Positions 54,376 through 57,995 are shown, counted from the stretch's first letter. The stretch: DNA of 64,000 bases from Escherichia coli (GCF_003790525.1 NZ_CP033635.1); one strand, 5' to 3'. A program made the numbers and translations. The notes: generated by a model from the letters alone, not told the origin.

Positions 54376-55917
54376 ATGCGTAAGATAACAACCGCCGAGG
54401 CACTGGCGGCGCAAATTCAGGACGGTGCGACTATTGCTATTAGCGGTAACGGCGGCGGTATGGTGGAAGCCGACCATATTCTGGCTGCTATTGAAGCGCG
54501 TTTCCTGCAAACCGGACACCCGCGCGATCTGACATTAATCCACTCGCTGGGTATTGGCGATCGCGACAGCAAAGGCACTAACCGTTTTGCTCACGCCGAA
54601 ATGCTCAAACGCATTATTGCCGGACATTTTACCTGGTCGCCCAAGATGCAGGAACTGGTGAAAAGCAATGCTATTGAAGCCTACTGTTTCCCTGGTGGCG
54701 TGATTCAGGCGTTGCTACGGGAGATCGGTGCCGGACGTCCGGGGCTTTTTACCCACGTTGGGCTGGGATCGTTTGTTGATCCACGCAATGGCGGCGGTAA
54801 GTCGAATGAATGCACTACCACCGACCTGGTAGAACTGATTGAAATCGATGGTGAAACCAAACTTCGTTATCGCCCTTTCAAAGTGGATTACGCGATTTTG
54901 CGTGGCACTTATGCCGATCCTCGAGGCAACGTCAGCCTTGAAGAAGAAGCGATTGATATGGATAGCTATTCCATGGCGCTGGCAGCACACAACAGCGGCG
55001 GCAAAGTGTTCGTACAGGTACGCGATGTGCTGGAAGCTGGCGCGATTGAACCACGTCGGGTCAAATTACCGGGGATTCTGGTTGATGGCATCGTTGAGCA
55101 CCGCGAACAACCGCAAACCTATCTTGGTGGTTACGACCTGACCATTAGCGGTCAACATCGCCGTCTAAGTTCTAACGACGCTATTGAACTGGTTAGTCAT
55201 CCGGTGCGTCGCCTGATTGCCCGTCGGGCAGCACGGGAACTGGTGGCAGGCGCTTCAACCAACTTTGGCTTTGGTATTCCGGGCGGTATTCCAGGCGTAG
55301 CGCTGCGCGAAGGCGTGCCTTATCAAAGTTTGTGGCTGAGTGTAGAACAGGGTGTACATAACGGCATGATGCTGGATGATGCTCTGTTCGGCTGCGCCCG
55401 TAACGCCGATGCCATTATTCCATCACTCGATCAATTCGAATTCTACAGTGGCGGAGGGATCGATATCACCTTCCTCGGCATGGGAGAGATGGATCAGTAC
55501 GGTAACGTCAACGTCTCCCATCTCAATGGCAATCTGATTGGCCCCGGCGGATTTCTCGAAATTGCGCAAAACGCCCGTAAAGTGGTGTTCTGCGGCACGT
55601 TCGACGCCAAAGGTAGCAAGATTGATGTAACGCCAGATGGCTTGCATATCGCCCAGTCAGGTCAAATCCCTAAACTGGTTACCCAGGTGGAAAAAATCAC
55701 TTTTAGCGCCGCCTACGCACAGCAAAGTGGTCAGGAAGTGTTGTATATCACTGAACGTGCAGTATTCCAGTTAACGGCAGAAGGCGTTGAATTAATTGAA
55801 ATCGCACCAGGTGTGGAGATTGAGCGCGACATTCTGCCGTATATGGCCTTCCGTCCAATTATCAATCAGCCACGCCTGATGGAAAGTAGCCTGTTTACGC
55901 CGATGGAGGATGCATGA
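54376..55917 (+). CDS. Family I CoA-transferase with fused alpha/beta subunits, YdiF-like (513 aa)
   Basis: Alignable by eye to E. coli YdiF along its length (GLGSFVDPRNGGGK, KLPGILVDGIV, YITERAVFQLTAEGVELIEIAPGVEIERDILPYM). Confidence 0.85.
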   Translation: MRKITTAEALAAQIQDGATIAISGNGGGMVEADHILAAIEARFLQTGHPRDLTLIHSLGIGDRDSKGTNRFAHAEMLKRIIAGHFTWSPKMQELVKSNAIEAYCFPGGVIQALLREIGAGRPGLFTHVGLGSFVDPRNGGGKSNECTTTDLVELIEIDGETKLRYRPFKVDYAILRGTYADPRGNVSLEEEAIDMDSYSMALAAHNSGGKVFVQVRDVLEAGAIEPRRVKLPGILVDGIVEHREQPQTYLGGYDLTISGQHRRLSSNDAIELVSHPVRRLIARRAARELVAGASTNFGFGIPGGIPGVALREGVPYQSLWLSVEQGVHNGMMLDDALFGCARNADAIIPSLDQFEFYSGGGIDITFLGMGEMDQYGNVNVSHLNGNLIGPGGFLEIAQNARKVVFCGTFDAKGSKIDVTPDGLHIAQSGQIPKLVTQVEKITFSAAYAQQSGQEVLYITERAVFQLTAEGVELIEIAPGVEIERDILPYMAFRPIINQPRLMESSLFTPMEDA

Positions 55918-57995
55918 GCCAGCTTGATGACACCCTCCTTGATGCGCTCACACACGTCACTTTTCCAAAGGGTTTTGTGTCAGCAGAGCCAGCGTCAATT
56001 GTCACCGTTGAGGATGTTGATTACCCGATCTGGCAAGTTGATGCGCTGGTCGTTGGTAGCGGCGCAGCAGGATTACGTGCGGCAGTTGAACTTAAACGCC
56101 GCCAGCAAAATGTGCTGATCGCCACCGCCGGGTTATATATGGGGACATCGGCATGTTCTGGCTCTGATAAACAAACACTGTTTACCGCCGCTACCGCGGG
56201 CAACGGCGACAACTTCACCAAACTGGCAGAGGCACTGGCGAGCGGTGGGGCGATGGATCACGACACCGCTTATGTCGAAGCGGTAGGTTCTCTGCACACT
56301 CTAGGCGGGTTGCAATATCTTGGTCTGGAATTACCGGAAGATCGCTATGGCGCGATTCTTCGTTATCAAACCGACCATGACGAAGCCGGGCGTGCAACCT
56401 CGTGTGGGCCGCGTACCTCAAGGTTAATGGTGAAAGTGCTGCTGGAAGAAGTACAGCGTCTTGCTATCCCAATGTTGACCAGTGCAACAGTGATTAAACT
56501 GCTACATCAGCGTGACGAAAACGGCGAAGACCGCGTGGCGGGGGCAATCCTCGCGACCGGTCATCGCGCCCATAACCCATGGGGGCTGGCAATTGTGACT
56601 GCGCCCAATGTGGTACTGGCAACAGGAGGGCCTGGCGAGCTTTATCGCGACAGTGTGTATCCACACAAATGTTTCGGCTCACTGGGGCTGGCGCTGGAGG
56701 AAGGTCTGACGCTCACCAATCTGACCGAAAGCCAGTTTGGTATCGGCACAACGCGCAGCACCTTTCCGTGGAATTTGTCCGGGACTTATGTACAGGTGAT
56801 CCCATATATCTATTCCGTGGATGCCGGGGGTAACGAGTATAACTTCCTCGCGGATTACTATCGCACCACCCAGGAGCTGGCTTCAAACATTTTCCGTAAA
56901 GGCTATCAGTGGCCGTTCCACGCCACGCGGGTAATGGATTTTGGCTCCAGCTTGTTAGATATGGCAGTAGCGCAAGAGCAGCAATCAGGGCGTCAGGTAT
57001 TTATGGATTTCAATCGTAATCCTGAACCTGTGCCGGGTGACCTGCCGTTCTCATTAGATCGACTGGACGACGACGTTCGCGCGTATCTGGAAAATAACGA
57101 CGCTCTGGCACCATCGCCCATCGAACGACTGCAACGAATGAATCCGCTGTCTATCTCGCTGTATAAGATGCACGGTTACGATCTCACCACGCAGCCATTG
57201 CAGTTTGCCATGAATAATCAGCATATGAATGGCGGCATTGAAGTCGATATCTGGGGACAAACATCTCTGCCCGGTTGTTTTGCAGTGGGGGAAGTTGCTG
57301 GCACACACGGCGTCACCCGACCTGGCGGCGCGGCGTTGAATGCCGGGCAGGTTTTTGCTGTTCGTCTGGCACGTTTTATTGGTTGCACGCAAAAGCGGAA
57401 TATTGATGGAGATATAGCACAGCTGGCAGCTCCGGCACTGGCTTCTATAAGAGAGATCATTACTCAGGCGCACGATAACGGGACCGGGATGCCGTTGTCG
57501 GTTGTGAGAGAAAAAATTCAGGCACGAATGTCTGACCATGCGGGATTTATTTGCCATGCCGATAAAGTCCGACGTGCCACTCGTGATGCCCTGCTATTGA
57601 ACGAATTTGTGCAACGACATGGATTGGCAATCAAACATGTGGGTGAAGTTGCCGAGCTGTTTATGTGGCGGCATATGACGCTGACTTCTGCCGCCGTCTT
57701 AACTCAACTGACACATTATATTGATGCAGGTGGTGGTAGCCGGGGAGCACGTATTATTCTCGACAGGGATGGAAATTCTATTCCGCAAACACGAAATGGT
57801 TTTTGTGATGCCTGGCGCTTTCGTTCAGAGCGTACTGAGGATAAAAAAGATAAACTGCTTATTCATTATTGCAACAGTATCTTTCACGTCAGAGAAACAC
57901 CTGTCCGTGAGTTTCCCACTATCCGCGGCATTTGGTTTGAAAAAAACTGGCCTGGCTTTCTTAATGGGACAATTTACCAGCCACAGGATGAATGA
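55914..57995 (+). CDS. FAD-dependent oxidoreductase, fumarate reductase/succinate dehydrogenase flavoprotein-like (693 aa)
   Basis: N-terminal dinucleotide-binding motif DALVVGSGAAGLRAAVEL; FAD_binding_2-like architecture; start overlaps the upstream stop (ATGA). Confidence 0.75.
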   Translation: MSQLDDTLLDALTHVTFPKGFVSAEPASIVTVEDVDYPIWQVDALVVGSGAAGLRAAVELKRRQQNVLIATAGLYMGTSACSGSDKQTLFTAATAGNGDNFTKLAEALASGGAMDHDTAYVEAVGSLHTLGGLQYLGLELPEDRYGAILRYQTDHDEAGRATSCGPRTSRLMVKVLLEEVQRLAIPMLTSATVIKLLHQRDENGEDRVAGAILATGHRAHNPWGLAIVTAPNVVLATGGPGELYRDSVYPHKCFGSLGLALEEGLTLTNLTESQFGIGTTRSTFPWNLSGTYVQVIPYIYSVDAGGNEYNFLADYYRTTQELASNIFRKGYQWPFHATRVMDFGSSLLDMAVAQEQQSGRQVFMDFNRNPEPVPGDLPFSLDRLDDDVRAYLENNDALAPSPIERLQRMNPLSISLYKMHGYDLTTQPLQFAMNNQHMNGGIEVDIWGQTSLPGCFAVGEVAGTHGVTRPGGAALNAGQVFAVRLARFIGCTQKRNIDGDIAQLAAPALASIREIITQAHDNGTGMPLSVVREKIQARMSDHAGFICHADKVRRATRDALLLNEFVQRHGLAIKHVGEVAELFMWRHMTLTSAAVLTQLTHYIDAGGGSRGARIILDRDGNSIPQTRNGFCDAWRFRSERTEDKKDKLLIHYCNSIFHVRETPVREFPTIRGIWFEKNWPGFLNGTIYQPQDE

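What the first reader, a model, noticed from the sequence alone, without database searches (positions are those of the whole stretch)
55914..57995. Fumarate-reductase-like flavoprotein (693 aa) with no Fe-S or membrane-anchor partner
The protein has an N-terminal FAD dinucleotide-binding motif and SDH/FRD-flavoprotein-like features, but the operon encodes no iron-sulfur subunit or membrane anchor. Instead it is translationally coupled (ATGA overlaps) to a CoA-transferase upstream and a TRAP permease downstream. This suggests a soluble enoate or acyl-CoA reductase/dehydrogenase role rather than a respiratory complex.
Basis: inference. Interest (0 to 1): 0.55.

Follow-up and report, generated by a model that had tools for sequence, protein, structure and literature searches.

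The report
Orphan SdhA-like flavoprotein, sugar-acid operon
This 693-residue E. coli flavoprotein has the fold of the fumarate-reductase catalytic subunit but lacks its fumarate-specific residues and its iron-sulfur and membrane partners; it belongs to a large unstudied family that travels with one particular short-chain dehydrogenase in sugar-acid (probably glucuronate-type) breakdown clusters, so it probably marks an undescribed catabolic route.

Summary
The ORF is real: window 55914-57995, identical to E. coli SMS-3-5 WP_000080366.1. It has a GxGxxG motif and a full-length FAD_binding_2 match. A confident model (pLDDT 92) superposes on FrdA/SdhA.

It is not SdhA, FrdA, NadB or TfrA. Every curated model scores far below cut-off. 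The covalent-FAD His is Ser. The HPT motif is deleted and the proton-relay Arg/Glu residues are gone. Only the His/Arg clamp for one carboxylate remains. No SdhB/FrdB or anchor gene occurs in the window or in about 85 related loci.

The family is large: 418 clusters at 50% identity, in at least 596 species, with no named member found. Its constant partner is one SDR orthologue group (PRK12745). Neighbours are sugar-acid genes: KDG-type kinase and aldolase, Gfo/GMC oxidoreductases, TIM-barrel enzymes and GH28. Anaerobes add an OYE-type FMN/[4Fe-4S] protein.

The island's TRAP binding protein is closest to glucuronate/galacturonate binders. A CoA-transferase plus crotonase recur with the flavoprotein in Enterobacteriaceae, Rhizobium, Rhodobacteraceae, Clostridia and Desulfobacterales.

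Best reading: a soluble Cα-Cβ dehydrogenase/ene-reductase in an undescribed hexuronate-type pathway. The substrate, the reaction direction and whether it acts on the free acid or a CoA ester are unresolved.

The parts
51089..51727 (-). Divergent TetR/AcrR-family regulator of the operon
   Evidence: RefSeq CDS WP_001361377.1. NCBIfam gives only generic TetR hits. Pfam TetR_N plus TetR_C_29 are found on the Klebsiella and Salmonella orthologues.
51805..51870 (.). Regulatory region with two inverted repeats (51805-51830; 51849-51870, ATCAACCAACT/AGATGGTTGAT) and a CRP-like site, TGTGATCACTCTCGCA, at 51832-51847
   Evidence: The operator and CRP roles are inferred from pattern only. The number of CRP-like matches in the window is no higher than chance (2 found, 1.8 expected).
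51937..52728 (+). Short-chain dehydrogenase/reductase of the PRK12745 orthologue group, the family's constant partner
   Evidence: NCBIfam NF009386 scores 420 bits against a cut-off of 250. Partner SDRs from Planctomycetota, Clostridia and other Enterobacterales pass the same model at 316-354 bits. The nearest PDB entries, 4da9 and 4one, are uncharacterised.
52738..53580 (+). Xylose-isomerase-like TIM-barrel protein (AP_endonuc_2), probably an isomerase or eliminase
   Evidence: RefSeq name. PDB 3qc0/3ju2 (SMc04130, function unknown) match at E 3e-85 and 7vpf at E 8e-62. NCBIfam hits to IolO, Hyi and OtnI are weak only.
53590..54366 (+). Crotonase-type enoyl-CoA hydratase/dehydratase
   Evidence: NCBIfam and PDB hits to short-chain enoyl-CoA hydratase and 3-hydroxypropionyl-CoA dehydratase, 5zai at E 2e-40. 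Both catalytic Glu motifs are present, GGGIELAL and NPEVMLG.
54376..55917 (+). Fused family-I (YdiF/FadX-type) CoA-transferase; its stop codon overlaps the flavoprotein start codon
   Evidence: PDB 2ahu (YdiF) at E 6e-115. NCBIfam FadX scores 384 bits, below cut-off. The SVEQG and GPGGF motifs are present.
55914..57995 (+). The finding: a 693-aa stand-alone SdhA/FrdA-fold FAD protein
58016..58492 (+). TRAP small membrane subunit DctQ (an alternative start at 57992 would overlap the flavoprotein stop)
58535..59836 (+). TRAP large permease DctM
   Evidence: TIGR00786 scores 458 bits against a cut-off of 268.
59889..60860 (+). TRAP periplasmic solute-binding protein DctP of the uronate-binding clade
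   Evidence: The best PDB matches include 4x8r and 4n8y, among four hits at E 1e-67 to 1e-72. PMC11668362 describes 4X8R as glucuronate-bound and 4N8Y as galacturonate-bound. The nearest non-island homologues (56-61% identity) lie in UxaC-UxuB-UxuA-KdgK-Eda clusters.
60924..60950 (.). GC-rich hairpin with T/A runs on both sides, between dctP and the convergent rplI; probably a bidirectional terminator
   Evidence: Pattern scan only.

Best explanation
Shown. The protein is a cytoplasmic, stand-alone flavoprotein with the four-domain SdhA/FrdA fold. It has a normal FAD-binding site but no covalent-flavin histidine. It keeps the His/Arg pair (H437, R469) that in fumarate reductases clamps one substrate carboxylate against the flavin. 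It has lost the second carboxylate site (HPT histidine deleted, Thr replaced by Asn) and the Arg/Glu proton relay (FrdA R287 replaced by S345; E245 and R248 fall in a gap). In their place are family-invariant polar motifs: GSDKQT at 83-88, TDHD at 153-156, WNLSG, KGYQWPF and R405. It belongs to a large unnamed family whose constant partner is an SDR of the PRK12745 group, and the family is embedded in sugar-acid catabolic clusters.

Inferred mechanism. The enzyme moves a hydride between FAD N5 and a carbon next to the single carboxylate of a sugar-derived acid. This amounts to Cα-Cβ desaturation or enoate reduction, equivalent to interconverting a 2-hydroxy/saturated acid and its 2-enol/enoate. 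The SDR makes or consumes the adjacent keto group.

Inferred pathway in E. coli. A glucuronate-like hexuronate enters through the TRAP system; Klebsiella and Salmonella use an ExuT/DgoT-family MFS instead. The SDR, the TIM-barrel isomerase/eliminase and the flavoprotein remodel the C6 acid. The CoA-transferase and the crotonase carry out a thioester-level β-(de)hydration. That step could be β-elimination of the 4-OH of a uronyl-CoA to give the 4,5-enoate, or processing of a cleavage product. The product then enters the KDG kinase/KDPG aldolase route, which is encoded in the cluster in other phyla and by core genes in E. coli.

Electron partner. In anaerobes it is probably the adjacent OYE-type FMN/[4Fe-4S] protein, which favours the reductase direction. 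In E. coli no partner is encoded and it is unknown.
For: Fold and cofactor. Pfam FAD_binding_2 matches full length. The AlphaFold model has pLDDT 91.9 and pTM 0.94. Foldseek to FrdA 1kf6/5vpn gives a target-normalised TM-score of about 0.8 at 17% identity.

Active-site remodelling. Profile alignments to SdhA, FrdA and NadB give hhalign probability 99.9. They were read against the Fcc3 motif scheme in bioRxiv 10.1101/2022.01.20.477176. All 53 invariant columns come from 47 diverse members.

Not a known family. Every NCBIfam model is far below cut-off and the best PDB sequence match is E 6e-9.

No SdhB/FrdB or anchor subunits anywhere.

Family size. 418 clusters at E <= 1e-30 and at least 596 species. 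All AFDB neighbours are unnamed.

Conserved SDR partner. An SDR is present in 29 of 82 loci. Partners from four context types pass the same NCBIfam equivalog.

Sugar-acid context. KdgK-like and PfkB kinases and Eda-like aldolases flank the gene. Levoglucosan-dehydrogenase-like Gfo proteins lie directly upstream in 13 loci. GH28 genes are adjacent in two loci.

Uronate entry. See the DctP evidence. The ACS-family MFS in Klebsiella and Salmonella scores 315 bits on TIGR00893.

CoA enzymes recur and carry catalytically competent motifs.

OYE partner. All 19 OYE-type neighbours carry a Cys4 motif. Precedents for OYE-type modules feeding FAD_binding_2 enoate reductases are bioRxiv 10.1101/2022.01.20.477176 and 10.1101/2023.03.04.531086.
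Against: There are no experimental data, and no paper on the family was found in 10 full-text searches.

The simplest uronate-to-KDG scheme (dehydration, isomerisation, one NADH reduction) needs no flavoprotein, so its exact step is not deducible.

The gene is translationally coupled to the CoA-transferase, which fits a CoA-ester substrate as well as it fits the model above.

Alphaproteobacterial clusters carry a glucose-type ABC binding protein (4R2B, E 1e-173), not a uronate one. Brenneria has a PcaK-like aromatic-acid MFS. The entry substrate therefore differs between lineages and could be a cyclic hydroxy-acid such as quinate or shikimate.

No electron donor or acceptor is encoded in E. 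coli.

The capping-domain alignment behind the 'lost Arg' call is profile-based and was not checked on coordinates.
Confidence: 0.5

Rival explanations
1. The enzyme works at the thioester level. It would replace an acyl-CoA dehydrogenase or enoyl-CoA reductase in a Cai-like or beta-oxidation-like cycle. The CoA-transferase activates the imported acid, the crotonase (de)hydrates it, and the flavoprotein reduces or forms the 2-enoyl-CoA. Examples would be a 4,5-unsaturated uronyl-CoA, or acrylyl-CoA derived from 3-oxopropionate/3-hydroxypropionate. The SDR would act as the 3-hydroxyacyl-CoA dehydrogenase.
For: The flavoprotein start overlaps the CoA-transferase stop (ATGA). CoA-transferase plus crotonase co-occur with the family in at least six distant lineages. 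Acyl-CoA dehydrogenase and MaoC genes are also nearby in L060 and L028. The crotonase is closest to 3-hydroxypropionyl-CoA dehydratase and crotonase. The SDR carries a '3-ketoacyl reductase' name. Many invariant basic residues (K86, R160, K329, R405) could bind CoA phosphates.
Against: Context types A and C have the same SDR-flavoprotein pair and the same invariant active-site residues but no CoA enzyme within 10 kb on either side. These include Planctomycetota, Clostridia, Pseudescherichia, Phytobacter and Brenneria. The retained His/Arg clamp is a carboxylate-binding device in every characterised relative. No characterised FAD_binding_2 enzyme that I know of uses a CoA ester (own knowledge).
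Confidence: 0.3
2. It is a redox-neutral flavoenzyme. FAD would transiently oxidise and re-reduce the substrate to drive a dehydration or isomerisation of a sugar acid, so no external electron partner is needed.
For: No electron partner is encoded in the proteobacterial clusters. Uronate-to-KDG stoichiometry needs a dehydration but no extra redox step (inference). Neighbouring Gfo and TIM-barrel enzymes use an oxidation-elimination logic in the levoglucosan pathway (own knowledge; Gfo similarity).
Against: I know of no precedent in the SDH/FRD/NadB superfamily. In anaerobes the gene is almost always next to an OYE-type FMN/[4Fe-4S] protein, often fused to a GltD-like NAD(P)H module. That arrangement indicates net electron transfer.
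Confidence: 0.08
3. It is a NadB-like C-N oxidase acting on an amino sugar acid or amino acid, producing an imine that hydrolyses to a 2-keto acid.
For: L-aspartate oxidases are among the top sequence and profile hits. Like this protein, NadB is soluble, has non-covalent FAD and has no Fe-S partner (own knowledge).
Against: TIGR00551 scores 99.8 bits against a cut-off of 452.75. The counterparts of NadB H244 and R290 are deleted or replaced. No aminotransferase, deaminase or amino-sugar gene is seen among the annotated neighbour families. The transporter evidence points to uronates.
Confidence: 0.05
4. It is an ordinary SdhA, FrdA or NadB paralogue, or a decaying remnant with no function of its own.
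For: It has the same Pfam family and fold. The island is absent from about 73% of complete E. coli genomes and is degraded in K-12.
Against: All curated cut-offs are missed by a factor of 4 to 10. Defining residues are absent. There are 53 invariant columns across phyla. The ORF is intact and the operon syntenic in E. coli, E. albertii, Klebsiella and Salmonella.
Confidence: 0.02

Closest known systems
Complex II flavoprotein subunits (E. coli FrdA/SdhA; PDB 1kf6, 5vpn, 1nek)
   Same: Same four-domain fold, with a target-normalised TM-score of about 0.8. Same FAD-binding motifs. The equivalents of FrdA H355 and R390 are conserved (H437, R469), as is the C-terminal 'SRG' motif (R610).
   Different: Only 17% identity. 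The covalent-FAD His is Ser79. The HPT motif is deleted. T244, E245, R248 and R287 are absent or replaced. There is no Fe-S subunit and no membrane anchor. The protein is about 90-100 residues longer, with an N-terminal extension and an enlarged capping domain.
L-aspartate oxidase NadB (PDB 1chu, 5kxj)
   Same: Top profile hit in PDB at E 2e-29. Both are soluble, stand-alone proteins with non-covalent FAD (own knowledge).
   Different: NCBIfam scores 99.8-106 bits against cut-offs of 453-639. The catalytic His and Arg of the capping domain are missing. E. coli has its own nadB elsewhere. The gene context is catabolic, not NAD biosynthesis.
[quoted passage not shown]
   Same: They are soluble FAD_binding_2 catalysts whose specificity shifted through loss of the second-carboxylate and proton-relay motifs. 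An OYE-type module supplies electrons. In anaerobes, members of the present family sit next to an OYE-type gene.
   Different: This family has no FMN_bind domain and no OYE fusion. The OYE neighbours carry a FadH-like Cys4 motif instead. The sequence match to urocanate reductase 6t85 is only E 4e-5. The present family has the SdhA-type helical and C-terminal domains. The gene context is carbohydrate-acid catabolism.
Carnitine system CaiB/CaiD/CaiA of E. coli (analogy of logic, not homology)
   Same: It combines a CoA-transferase, a crotonase-type dehydratase and a flavoprotein acting on the resulting enoyl compound, plus a dedicated transporter, in one operon (own knowledge; operon composition).
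   Different: CaiB is a family-III transferase and CaiA an acyl-CoA-dehydrogenase-fold protein. Here the transferase is family I (YdiF-like) and the flavoprotein has the SdhA fold. The additional SDR and TIM-barrel genes have no Cai counterpart.
Canonical hexuronate pathway (ExuT or TRAP, UxaC, UxuB/UxaB, UxuA/UxaA, KdgK, Eda) and the KduI/KduD branch
   Same: The TRAP binding protein is 56-61% identical to those of UxaC-UxuAB clusters. In other phyla, family members are clustered with KdgK-like and Eda-like genes.
   Different: None of UxaC, UxuA, UxuB or KduI is in the operon. The SDR is not KduD: about 118-137 bits against a cut-off of 339. CoA-dependent enzymes and a flavoprotein have no role in the known routes.

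Membership tests
SdhA/FrdA (complex II flavoprotein) | FAD_binding_2 fold with capping, helical and C-terminal domains | tested here: met
   Pfam E 5.7e-25. Foldseek to 1kf6/5vpn gives E about 1e-30 and a target-normalised TM-score of 0.79-0.80. hhalign probability is 99.9 over 506 columns.
SdhA/FrdA (complex II flavoprotein) | Histidine for covalent 8-alpha-N3-histidyl FAD (FrdA H44 / SdhA H45) | tested here: not met
   This position aligns to the invariant Ser79.
SdhA/FrdA (complex II flavoprotein) | Dicarboxylate site and proton relay: H232 (HPT), T244, E245, R248, R287, H355, R390 (FrdA numbering) | tested here: not met
   Only H355 and R390 are kept, as H437 and R469. HPT is a three-residue deletion, T244 becomes N287, E245 and R248 fall in a gap, and R287 becomes S345. 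The capping-domain part rests on a profile alignment.
SdhA/FrdA (complex II flavoprotein) | Adjacent Fe-S subunit (SdhB/FrdB) and membrane anchor genes | tested here: not met
   tblastn with E. coli FrdB/C/D and SdhB/C/D gave 0 hits in the window and in about 85 family loci.
SdhA/FrdA (complex II flavoprotein) | Curated NCBIfam score cut-off | tested here: not met
   TIGR01812 scores 81 bits against 567. TIGR01816 scores 47 against 727. TIGR01176 scores 38 against 933.
L-aspartate oxidase NadB | Curated model cut-off and catalytic H244/R290 | tested here: not met
   TIGR00551 scores 99.8 bits against 452.75, and PRK07804 scores 106 against 639. Both residues lack counterparts.
Thiol:fumarate reductase TfrA | Curated model cut-off and TfrB partner | tested here: not met
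   This is the best NCBIfam hit, but at 124 bits against a cut-off of 718. No TfrB-like gene is evident among the neighbours inspected; I did not run a dedicated TfrB search.
Soluble enoate reductases (Fcc3, UrdA, ARD, Crd type) | Fused or partner electron-input domain (haem, FMN_bind, OYE-like) | tested here: not met
   Pfam finds only FAD_binding_2 in the protein, and no such gene lies in the E. coli operon. In 19 of 82 related loci a separate OYE-type gene is nearby.
Soluble enoate reductases (Fcc3, UrdA, ARD, Crd type) | Reduction of an alpha,beta-unsaturated carboxylate | not testable with these tools
   This requires an enzyme assay. The retained single-carboxylate clamp is compatible with it.
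3-ketosteroid delta-1-dehydrogenase (KstD) type | Sequence or profile similarity beyond the dinucleotide-binding motif | tested here: not met
   PDB 7p18 matches only profile positions 13-60, at E 6e-5.
Unnamed family defined here (about 650-700 aa, GSDKQT motif) | Full-length homology, invariant GSDKQT, TDHD, QF-G, WNLSG, KGYQWPF, QHxNGG, RPGG and SRG motifs, and a PRK12745 SDR neighbour | tested here: met
   The query carries all 53 invariant columns of alignment A1. Top representatives score 300-800 bits over the full length. The adjacent SDR scores 420 bits on NF009386.

The most novel reading that the evidence does not exclude
About a quarter of E. coli strains, together with Klebsiella oxytoca-group strains and some Salmonella, carry an undescribed CoA-dependent route for glucuronate-type uronic acids. 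The acid is activated by a YdiF-type CoA-transferase. A crotonase dehydrates it by β-elimination of the 4-hydroxyl, the chemistry of a polysaccharide lyase applied to a thioester. A new class of SdhA-fold flavoprotein then reduces (or forms) the resulting 4,5-enoate. An SDR and a TIM-barrel isomerase deliver the product to the KDG kinase/aldolase route. In anaerobes the same flavoprotein-SDR pair would be driven by an OYE-type Fe-S flavoprotein that functionally replaces SdhB.
Probability: 0.15. Interest if true: 0.8.

Novelty: new variant of a known kind. Interest (0 to 1): 0.55.

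Why it matters
Glucuronate and glucuronides are major gut carbon sources, and uronate use by Enterobacteriaceae affects colonisation and drug-glucuronide recycling. A second, chemically different uronate-type pathway in a quarter of E. coli genomes would change how strain-specific niche use is modelled; the operon sits at the same chromosomal site in Klebsiella and Salmonella.

For enzymology, the family is a large branch of a very well-studied flavoprotein fold, found in at least 596 species from Planctomycetota to Asgard archaea. It has a rebuilt substrate site and no assigned reaction.

The recurring pairing with one SDR orthologue group, and in anaerobes with an OYE-type Fe-S protein, gives a defined and testable module.

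If instead it is only a side-activity ene-reductase, it remains a useful correction to the 'succinate dehydrogenase flavoprotein subunit' and 'L-aspartate oxidase' names that some databases give family members.

Tried and rejected
1. Conventional SdhA, FrdA, NadB or TfrA. Rejected on NCBIfam cut-offs, the residue audit and the absence of partner subunits.

2. A single-sequence AlphaFold run gave an unusable model (pLDDT 34). It was replaced by the alignment-based model.

3. Literature. Ten full-text searches found nothing on this family or operon. They covered the protein accession, PDB codes 7VPF/3QC0/3JU2/4DA9, SMc04130, operon product names, and pathway keywords. One search was wasted because the term '4ONE' is a common string. 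Two relevant papers could not be opened: Vetting 2015 (my recalled PMC id may also have been wrong) and Bouvier 2019 (PMC id confirmed from a reference list but not held).

4. SDR as KduD. Rejected, at about 118-137 bits against a cut-off of 339.

5. Crotonase as a decarboxylase, in a malonate / malonate-semialdehyde module. Disfavoured because both hydratase Glu residues are present.

6. The CoA-transferase-flavoprotein 'fusion' proteins in the database as Rosetta-stone evidence. Rejected. P0003 is an in-frame deletion that removes the C-terminal 124 residues of the transferase.

7. CRP regulation. The site is in the right place, but the number of such matches in the window equals the chance expectation, so it is only a lead.

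8. Quinate/shikimate and inositol-type substrates were considered because of the PcaK-like MFS in Brenneria and the Gfo/TIM-barrel neighbours. They are not excluded, but for E. coli they are less supported than uronates given the DctP evidence.

9. Short metagenomic contigs for P0123 and P0127 gave little context. The genome-collection scan replaced them.

Full report
**Observation.** The window is E. coli SMS-3-5 chromosome: window 49500-62500 is 100% identical to NC_010498.1. An ATG-TGA ORF of 693 codons lies at 55914-57995 and equals the RefSeq CDS WP_000080366.1, 'FAD-dependent oxidoreductase'. It carries VVGSGAAG at residues 46-53. Pfam FAD_binding_2 matches over the whole model (residues 43-475, E 5.7e-25), and no other domain is significant. 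The stop codon of the upstream CoA-transferase overlaps its start codon (ATGA at 55914-55917). A second ATGA lies at 57992-57995, but RefSeq starts the DctQ gene at 58016, so the downstream coupling is uncertain.

**The operon.** Nine genes form a compact unit between ytfB/fklB and rplI.
- A divergent TetR regulator.
- An SDR, a xylose-isomerase-like TIM-barrel protein, a crotonase, a fused YdiF-type CoA-transferase and the flavoprotein. Intergenic gaps here are 9, 9, 9 and -4 nt.
- DctQ, DctM and DctP.

The crotonase has both catalytic Glu motifs, and the transferase has its SVEQG and GPGGF motifs.

The full island is present in 1454 of 5426 complete E. coli genomes. Klebsiella oxytoca and Salmonella carry the same operon at the same chromosomal site, but with an ACS-family MFS in place of the TRAP system (TIGR00893, 315 bits). 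K-12 keeps only scars. The ytfA pseudogene is the 3' part of the TetR gene, and a 102-bp fragment of the SDR gene survives next to yjfZ. The locus is therefore old in Enterobacteriaceae and has been lost repeatedly.

**What the protein is not.** Every curated NCBIfam model is missed by a wide margin:

| Model | Score (bits) | Cut-off (bits) |
|---|---|---|
| TfrA | 124 | 718 |
| NadB (PRK07804) | 106 | 639 |
| NadB (TIGR00551) | 99.8 | 452.75 |
| SdhA/FrdA (TIGR01812) | 81 | 567 |

The best PDB sequence match is only E 6e-9. An alignment-based AlphaFold model is confident (pLDDT 91.9, pTM 0.94). It superposes on FrdA/SdhA with a target-normalised TM-score of about 0.8 at 17% identity; AprA, PAPS reductase and NadB follow. 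Residues about 500-693 are thus the normal helical and C-terminal domains of the fold, including the 'SRG' motif at R610. They are not a novel appended domain.

I compared the family with E. coli FrdA, SdhA and NadB by profile-profile alignment (probability 99.9). I read the result against the Fcc3 motif scheme summarised in bioRxiv 10.1101/2022.01.20.477176.

| FrdA residue | Role | In this protein |
|---|---|---|
| H44 | covalent-FAD His | Ser79 |
| H232 (HPT) | second carboxylate site | three-residue deletion |
| T244 | second carboxylate site | N287 |
| E245, R248 | proton relay | fall in a gap |
| R287 | proton donor | invariant S345 |
| H355 | carboxylate clamp | H437 (kept) |
| R390 | carboxylate clamp | R469 (kept) |

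The enzyme therefore keeps the clamp for one carboxylate next to the flavin and has lost the second carboxylate site and the proton relay. The capping-domain assignments are profile-based. I could not check them on coordinates.

tblastn with E. coli FrdB/C/D and SdhB/C/D finds nothing in the window or in about 85 related loci.

**The family.** A search of 1.84 billion representatives gives 418 clusters at E <= 1e-30. The top 150 align over the full length at 35-63% identity. A genome scan found relatives in at least 596 species. These include Rhizobium, Rhodobacteraceae, Devosia, Planctomycetota, Lentisphaerota, Clostridia, Desulfobacterales and Enterobacterales. AFDB neighbours add gut Clostridia, Victivallis, Succinatimonas and an Asgard archaeon, all with generic names. 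An alignment of 47 diverse members has 53 invariant columns. They include the motifs GSDKQT (D85 aligns with FrdA E49 beside the flavin), TDHD, WNLSG, KGYQWPF and R405. I found no publication on the family in ten full-text searches.

**Gene context.** The commonest neighbour is an SDR, present in 29 of 82 loci and often directly adjacent. Partner SDRs from Planctomycetota, Clostridia, Pseudescherichia and E. coli all pass the same NCBIfam equivalog, NF009386/PRK12745, at 316-420 bits against a cut-off of 250. They score only about 118-137 bits on KduD, whose cut-off is 339. SDR plus flavoprotein is therefore an orthologous two-gene module. Around it there are five architectures.
- **Type A** (Planctomycetota, Phycisphaerae, Clostridia, Aminicenantes): an OYE-type protein, or an 880-aa OYE-GltD fusion, plus SDR, Eda-like aldolase, flavoprotein and PfkB kinase. 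Two loci also have three GH28 genes.
- **Type B** (Rhizobium, Rhodobacteraceae, Devosia): a glucose-type ABC transporter (binding protein matches 4R2B at E 1e-173), two GMC oxidoreductases, a levoglucosan-dehydrogenase-like Gfo protein, the flavoprotein and a KdgK-like kinase. In two Rhizobium plasmids a CoA-transferase, a crotonase and an aldehyde dehydrogenase lie 10-12 kb upstream in the same orientation.
- **Type C** (Pseudescherichia, Phytobacter, Mangrovibacter, Brenneria, a Lentisphaeria MAG and a betaproteobacterium): SDR, Gfo, TIM-barrel protein, MFS transporter and flavoprotein.
- **Type D**: the E. coli, Klebsiella and Salmonella operon.
- **Type E** (a Clostridia MAG and a Desulfobacterales MAG): the flavoprotein with CoA-transferase(s), crotonase or acyl-CoA dehydrogenases, a cupin and SDR(s).

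All 19 OYE-type neighbours carry a CxxCxxC-x11-C motif like the [4Fe-4S] site of FadH/BaiCD. In anaerobes an Fe-S flavoprotein partner is therefore plausible. OYE-type modules are known to feed FAD_binding_2 enoate reductases.

**The substrate class in E. coli.** The island's DctP is most similar in PDB to 4ovr, 4x8r, 4n8y and 4n15 (E 1e-72 to 1e-67). PMC11668362 describes 4N8Y as galacturonate-bound and 4X8R as glucuronate-bound. Outside the island, its closest homologues (56-61% identity) are in Aeromonas veronii, Vibrio cholerae and Providencia. There they sit in textbook glucuronate clusters: DctQM, UxaC, UxuB, UxuA, PfkB kinase, Eda aldolase and a GntR regulator, with a GH2 gene and a GH31 gene in the Vibrio and Providencia loci. 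The MFS that replaces the TRAP system in Klebsiella and Salmonella belongs to the ExuT/DgoT/GudP family. A hexuronate, or a very similar cyclic hydroxy-acid, is thus the best-supported entry substrate. Brenneria's PcaK-like MFS and the glucose-type binding protein of type B show that entry points differ between lineages.

**Mechanism.**
- *Shown:* the fold, the intact FAD site, the single retained carboxylate clamp, the absence of SdhB-type partners, the conserved SDR partner, and the sugar-acid and CoA-enzyme context.
- *Inferred:* the enzyme performs Cα-Cβ hydride chemistry next to one carboxylate of a sugar-derived acid, as an enoate reductase or the reverse dehydrogenase. The SDR handles the adjacent carbonyl. 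The TIM-barrel protein isomerises or eliminates. The transferase and crotonase carry out a thioester-level β-(de)hydration. The product reaches the KDG kinase/aldolase route.

An attractive specific version is β-elimination of the 4-OH of a uronyl-CoA by the crotonase, giving a 4,5-enoate that the flavoprotein reduces. This is speculative, and I give it about 0.15. Its main weakness is that the simplest uronate-to-KDG scheme needs no flavoprotein.

The main rival, at 0.3, is that the flavoprotein itself acts on the CoA ester in a Cai-like cycle. The ATGA coupling and the recurrent CoA genes support this rival. Types A and C argue against it, because they share the same invariant active site but have no CoA enzymes nearby.

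**Verdict.** This is a new variant of a known kind: a large, uncharacterised branch of the SDH/FRD/NadB flavoprotein fold with a rebuilt substrate site. It sits in what looks like an undescribed sugar-acid pathway of E. coli and many other bacteria. The substrate, the reaction direction and the electron partner all need experiments.

Noticed in passing
window 51080-51472 and 52026-52127 (compared with K-12 locus L084): E. coli K-12 keeps deletion scars of this operon. The ytfA pseudogene matches the 3' part of the island's TetR gene at 90% identity. A 102-bp stretch matches the inside of the SDR gene at 82% identity. yjfZ occupies the place of the catabolic genes.
   Followed up: yes
L086 (Klebsiella oxytoca) 12128-13405; L087 (Salmonella enterica) 12127-13404: The same operon lies at the same ytfB-rplI site, but an ACS-family MFS (galactonate/hexuronate-transporter subfamily, 315 bits) replaces the three TRAP genes. 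This is a transporter swap within an otherwise syntenic operon.
   Followed up: partly
protein P0003 (E. coli, 1078 aa; also P0033 and P0087): Some E. coli assemblies encode a CoA-transferase-flavoprotein 'fusion'. P0003 is an in-frame deletion that joins transferase residues 1-389 to about residue 3 of the flavoprotein and removes the GPGGF motif. It is probably an inactivated allele, not a natural fusion.
   Followed up: partly
window 51805-51870: The TetR-SDR intergenic region holds a 22-bp palindrome (ATCAACCAACT/AGATGGTTGAT), a second inverted repeat (GTAATTTCAT-N6-ATCAAATTAC) and a CRP-like TGTGA-N6-TCGCA site. The number of CRP-like matches in the window is not above chance.
   Followed up: partly
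window 45092-47775, minus strand: Two hypothetical genes (RefSeq WP_000936769.1 and WP_000240851.1, about 497 and 385 aa) lie between ytfE and cycA. These two genes are adjacent in K-12. Neither hypothetical protein matches anything in PADLOC or NCBIfam.
   Followed up: partly
related loci of type A, e.g. L067 4043-6688, L079 8527-9999: OYE-type genes next to the flavoprotein all carry a CxxCxxC-x11-C motif (19 of 19). Eight are 880-aa fusions to a GltD-like NAD(P)H/Fe-S module. They are candidate electron partners, functionally analogous to SdhB.
   Followed up: partly
L054, L058, L063, L067 (Phycisphaerae/Planctomycetota), gene between the Eda-like gene and the flavoprotein: A roughly 500-aa BNR_4-domain protein with a hydrophobic N-terminal stretch (possible signal peptide, not tested) is inserted inside the otherwise cytoplasmic cluster. 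Its function is unknown.
   Followed up: no
window 57992 versus 58016: There are two candidate starts for dctQ. ATG 57992 overlaps the flavoprotein stop. ATG 58016, chosen by RefSeq, has an AAGG 9 nt upstream. This was not resolved.
   Followed up: no
window 60924-60950: A 12-bp GC-rich hairpin flanked by A and T runs lies between the convergent dctP and rplI genes. It is probably a bidirectional terminator.
   Followed up: no
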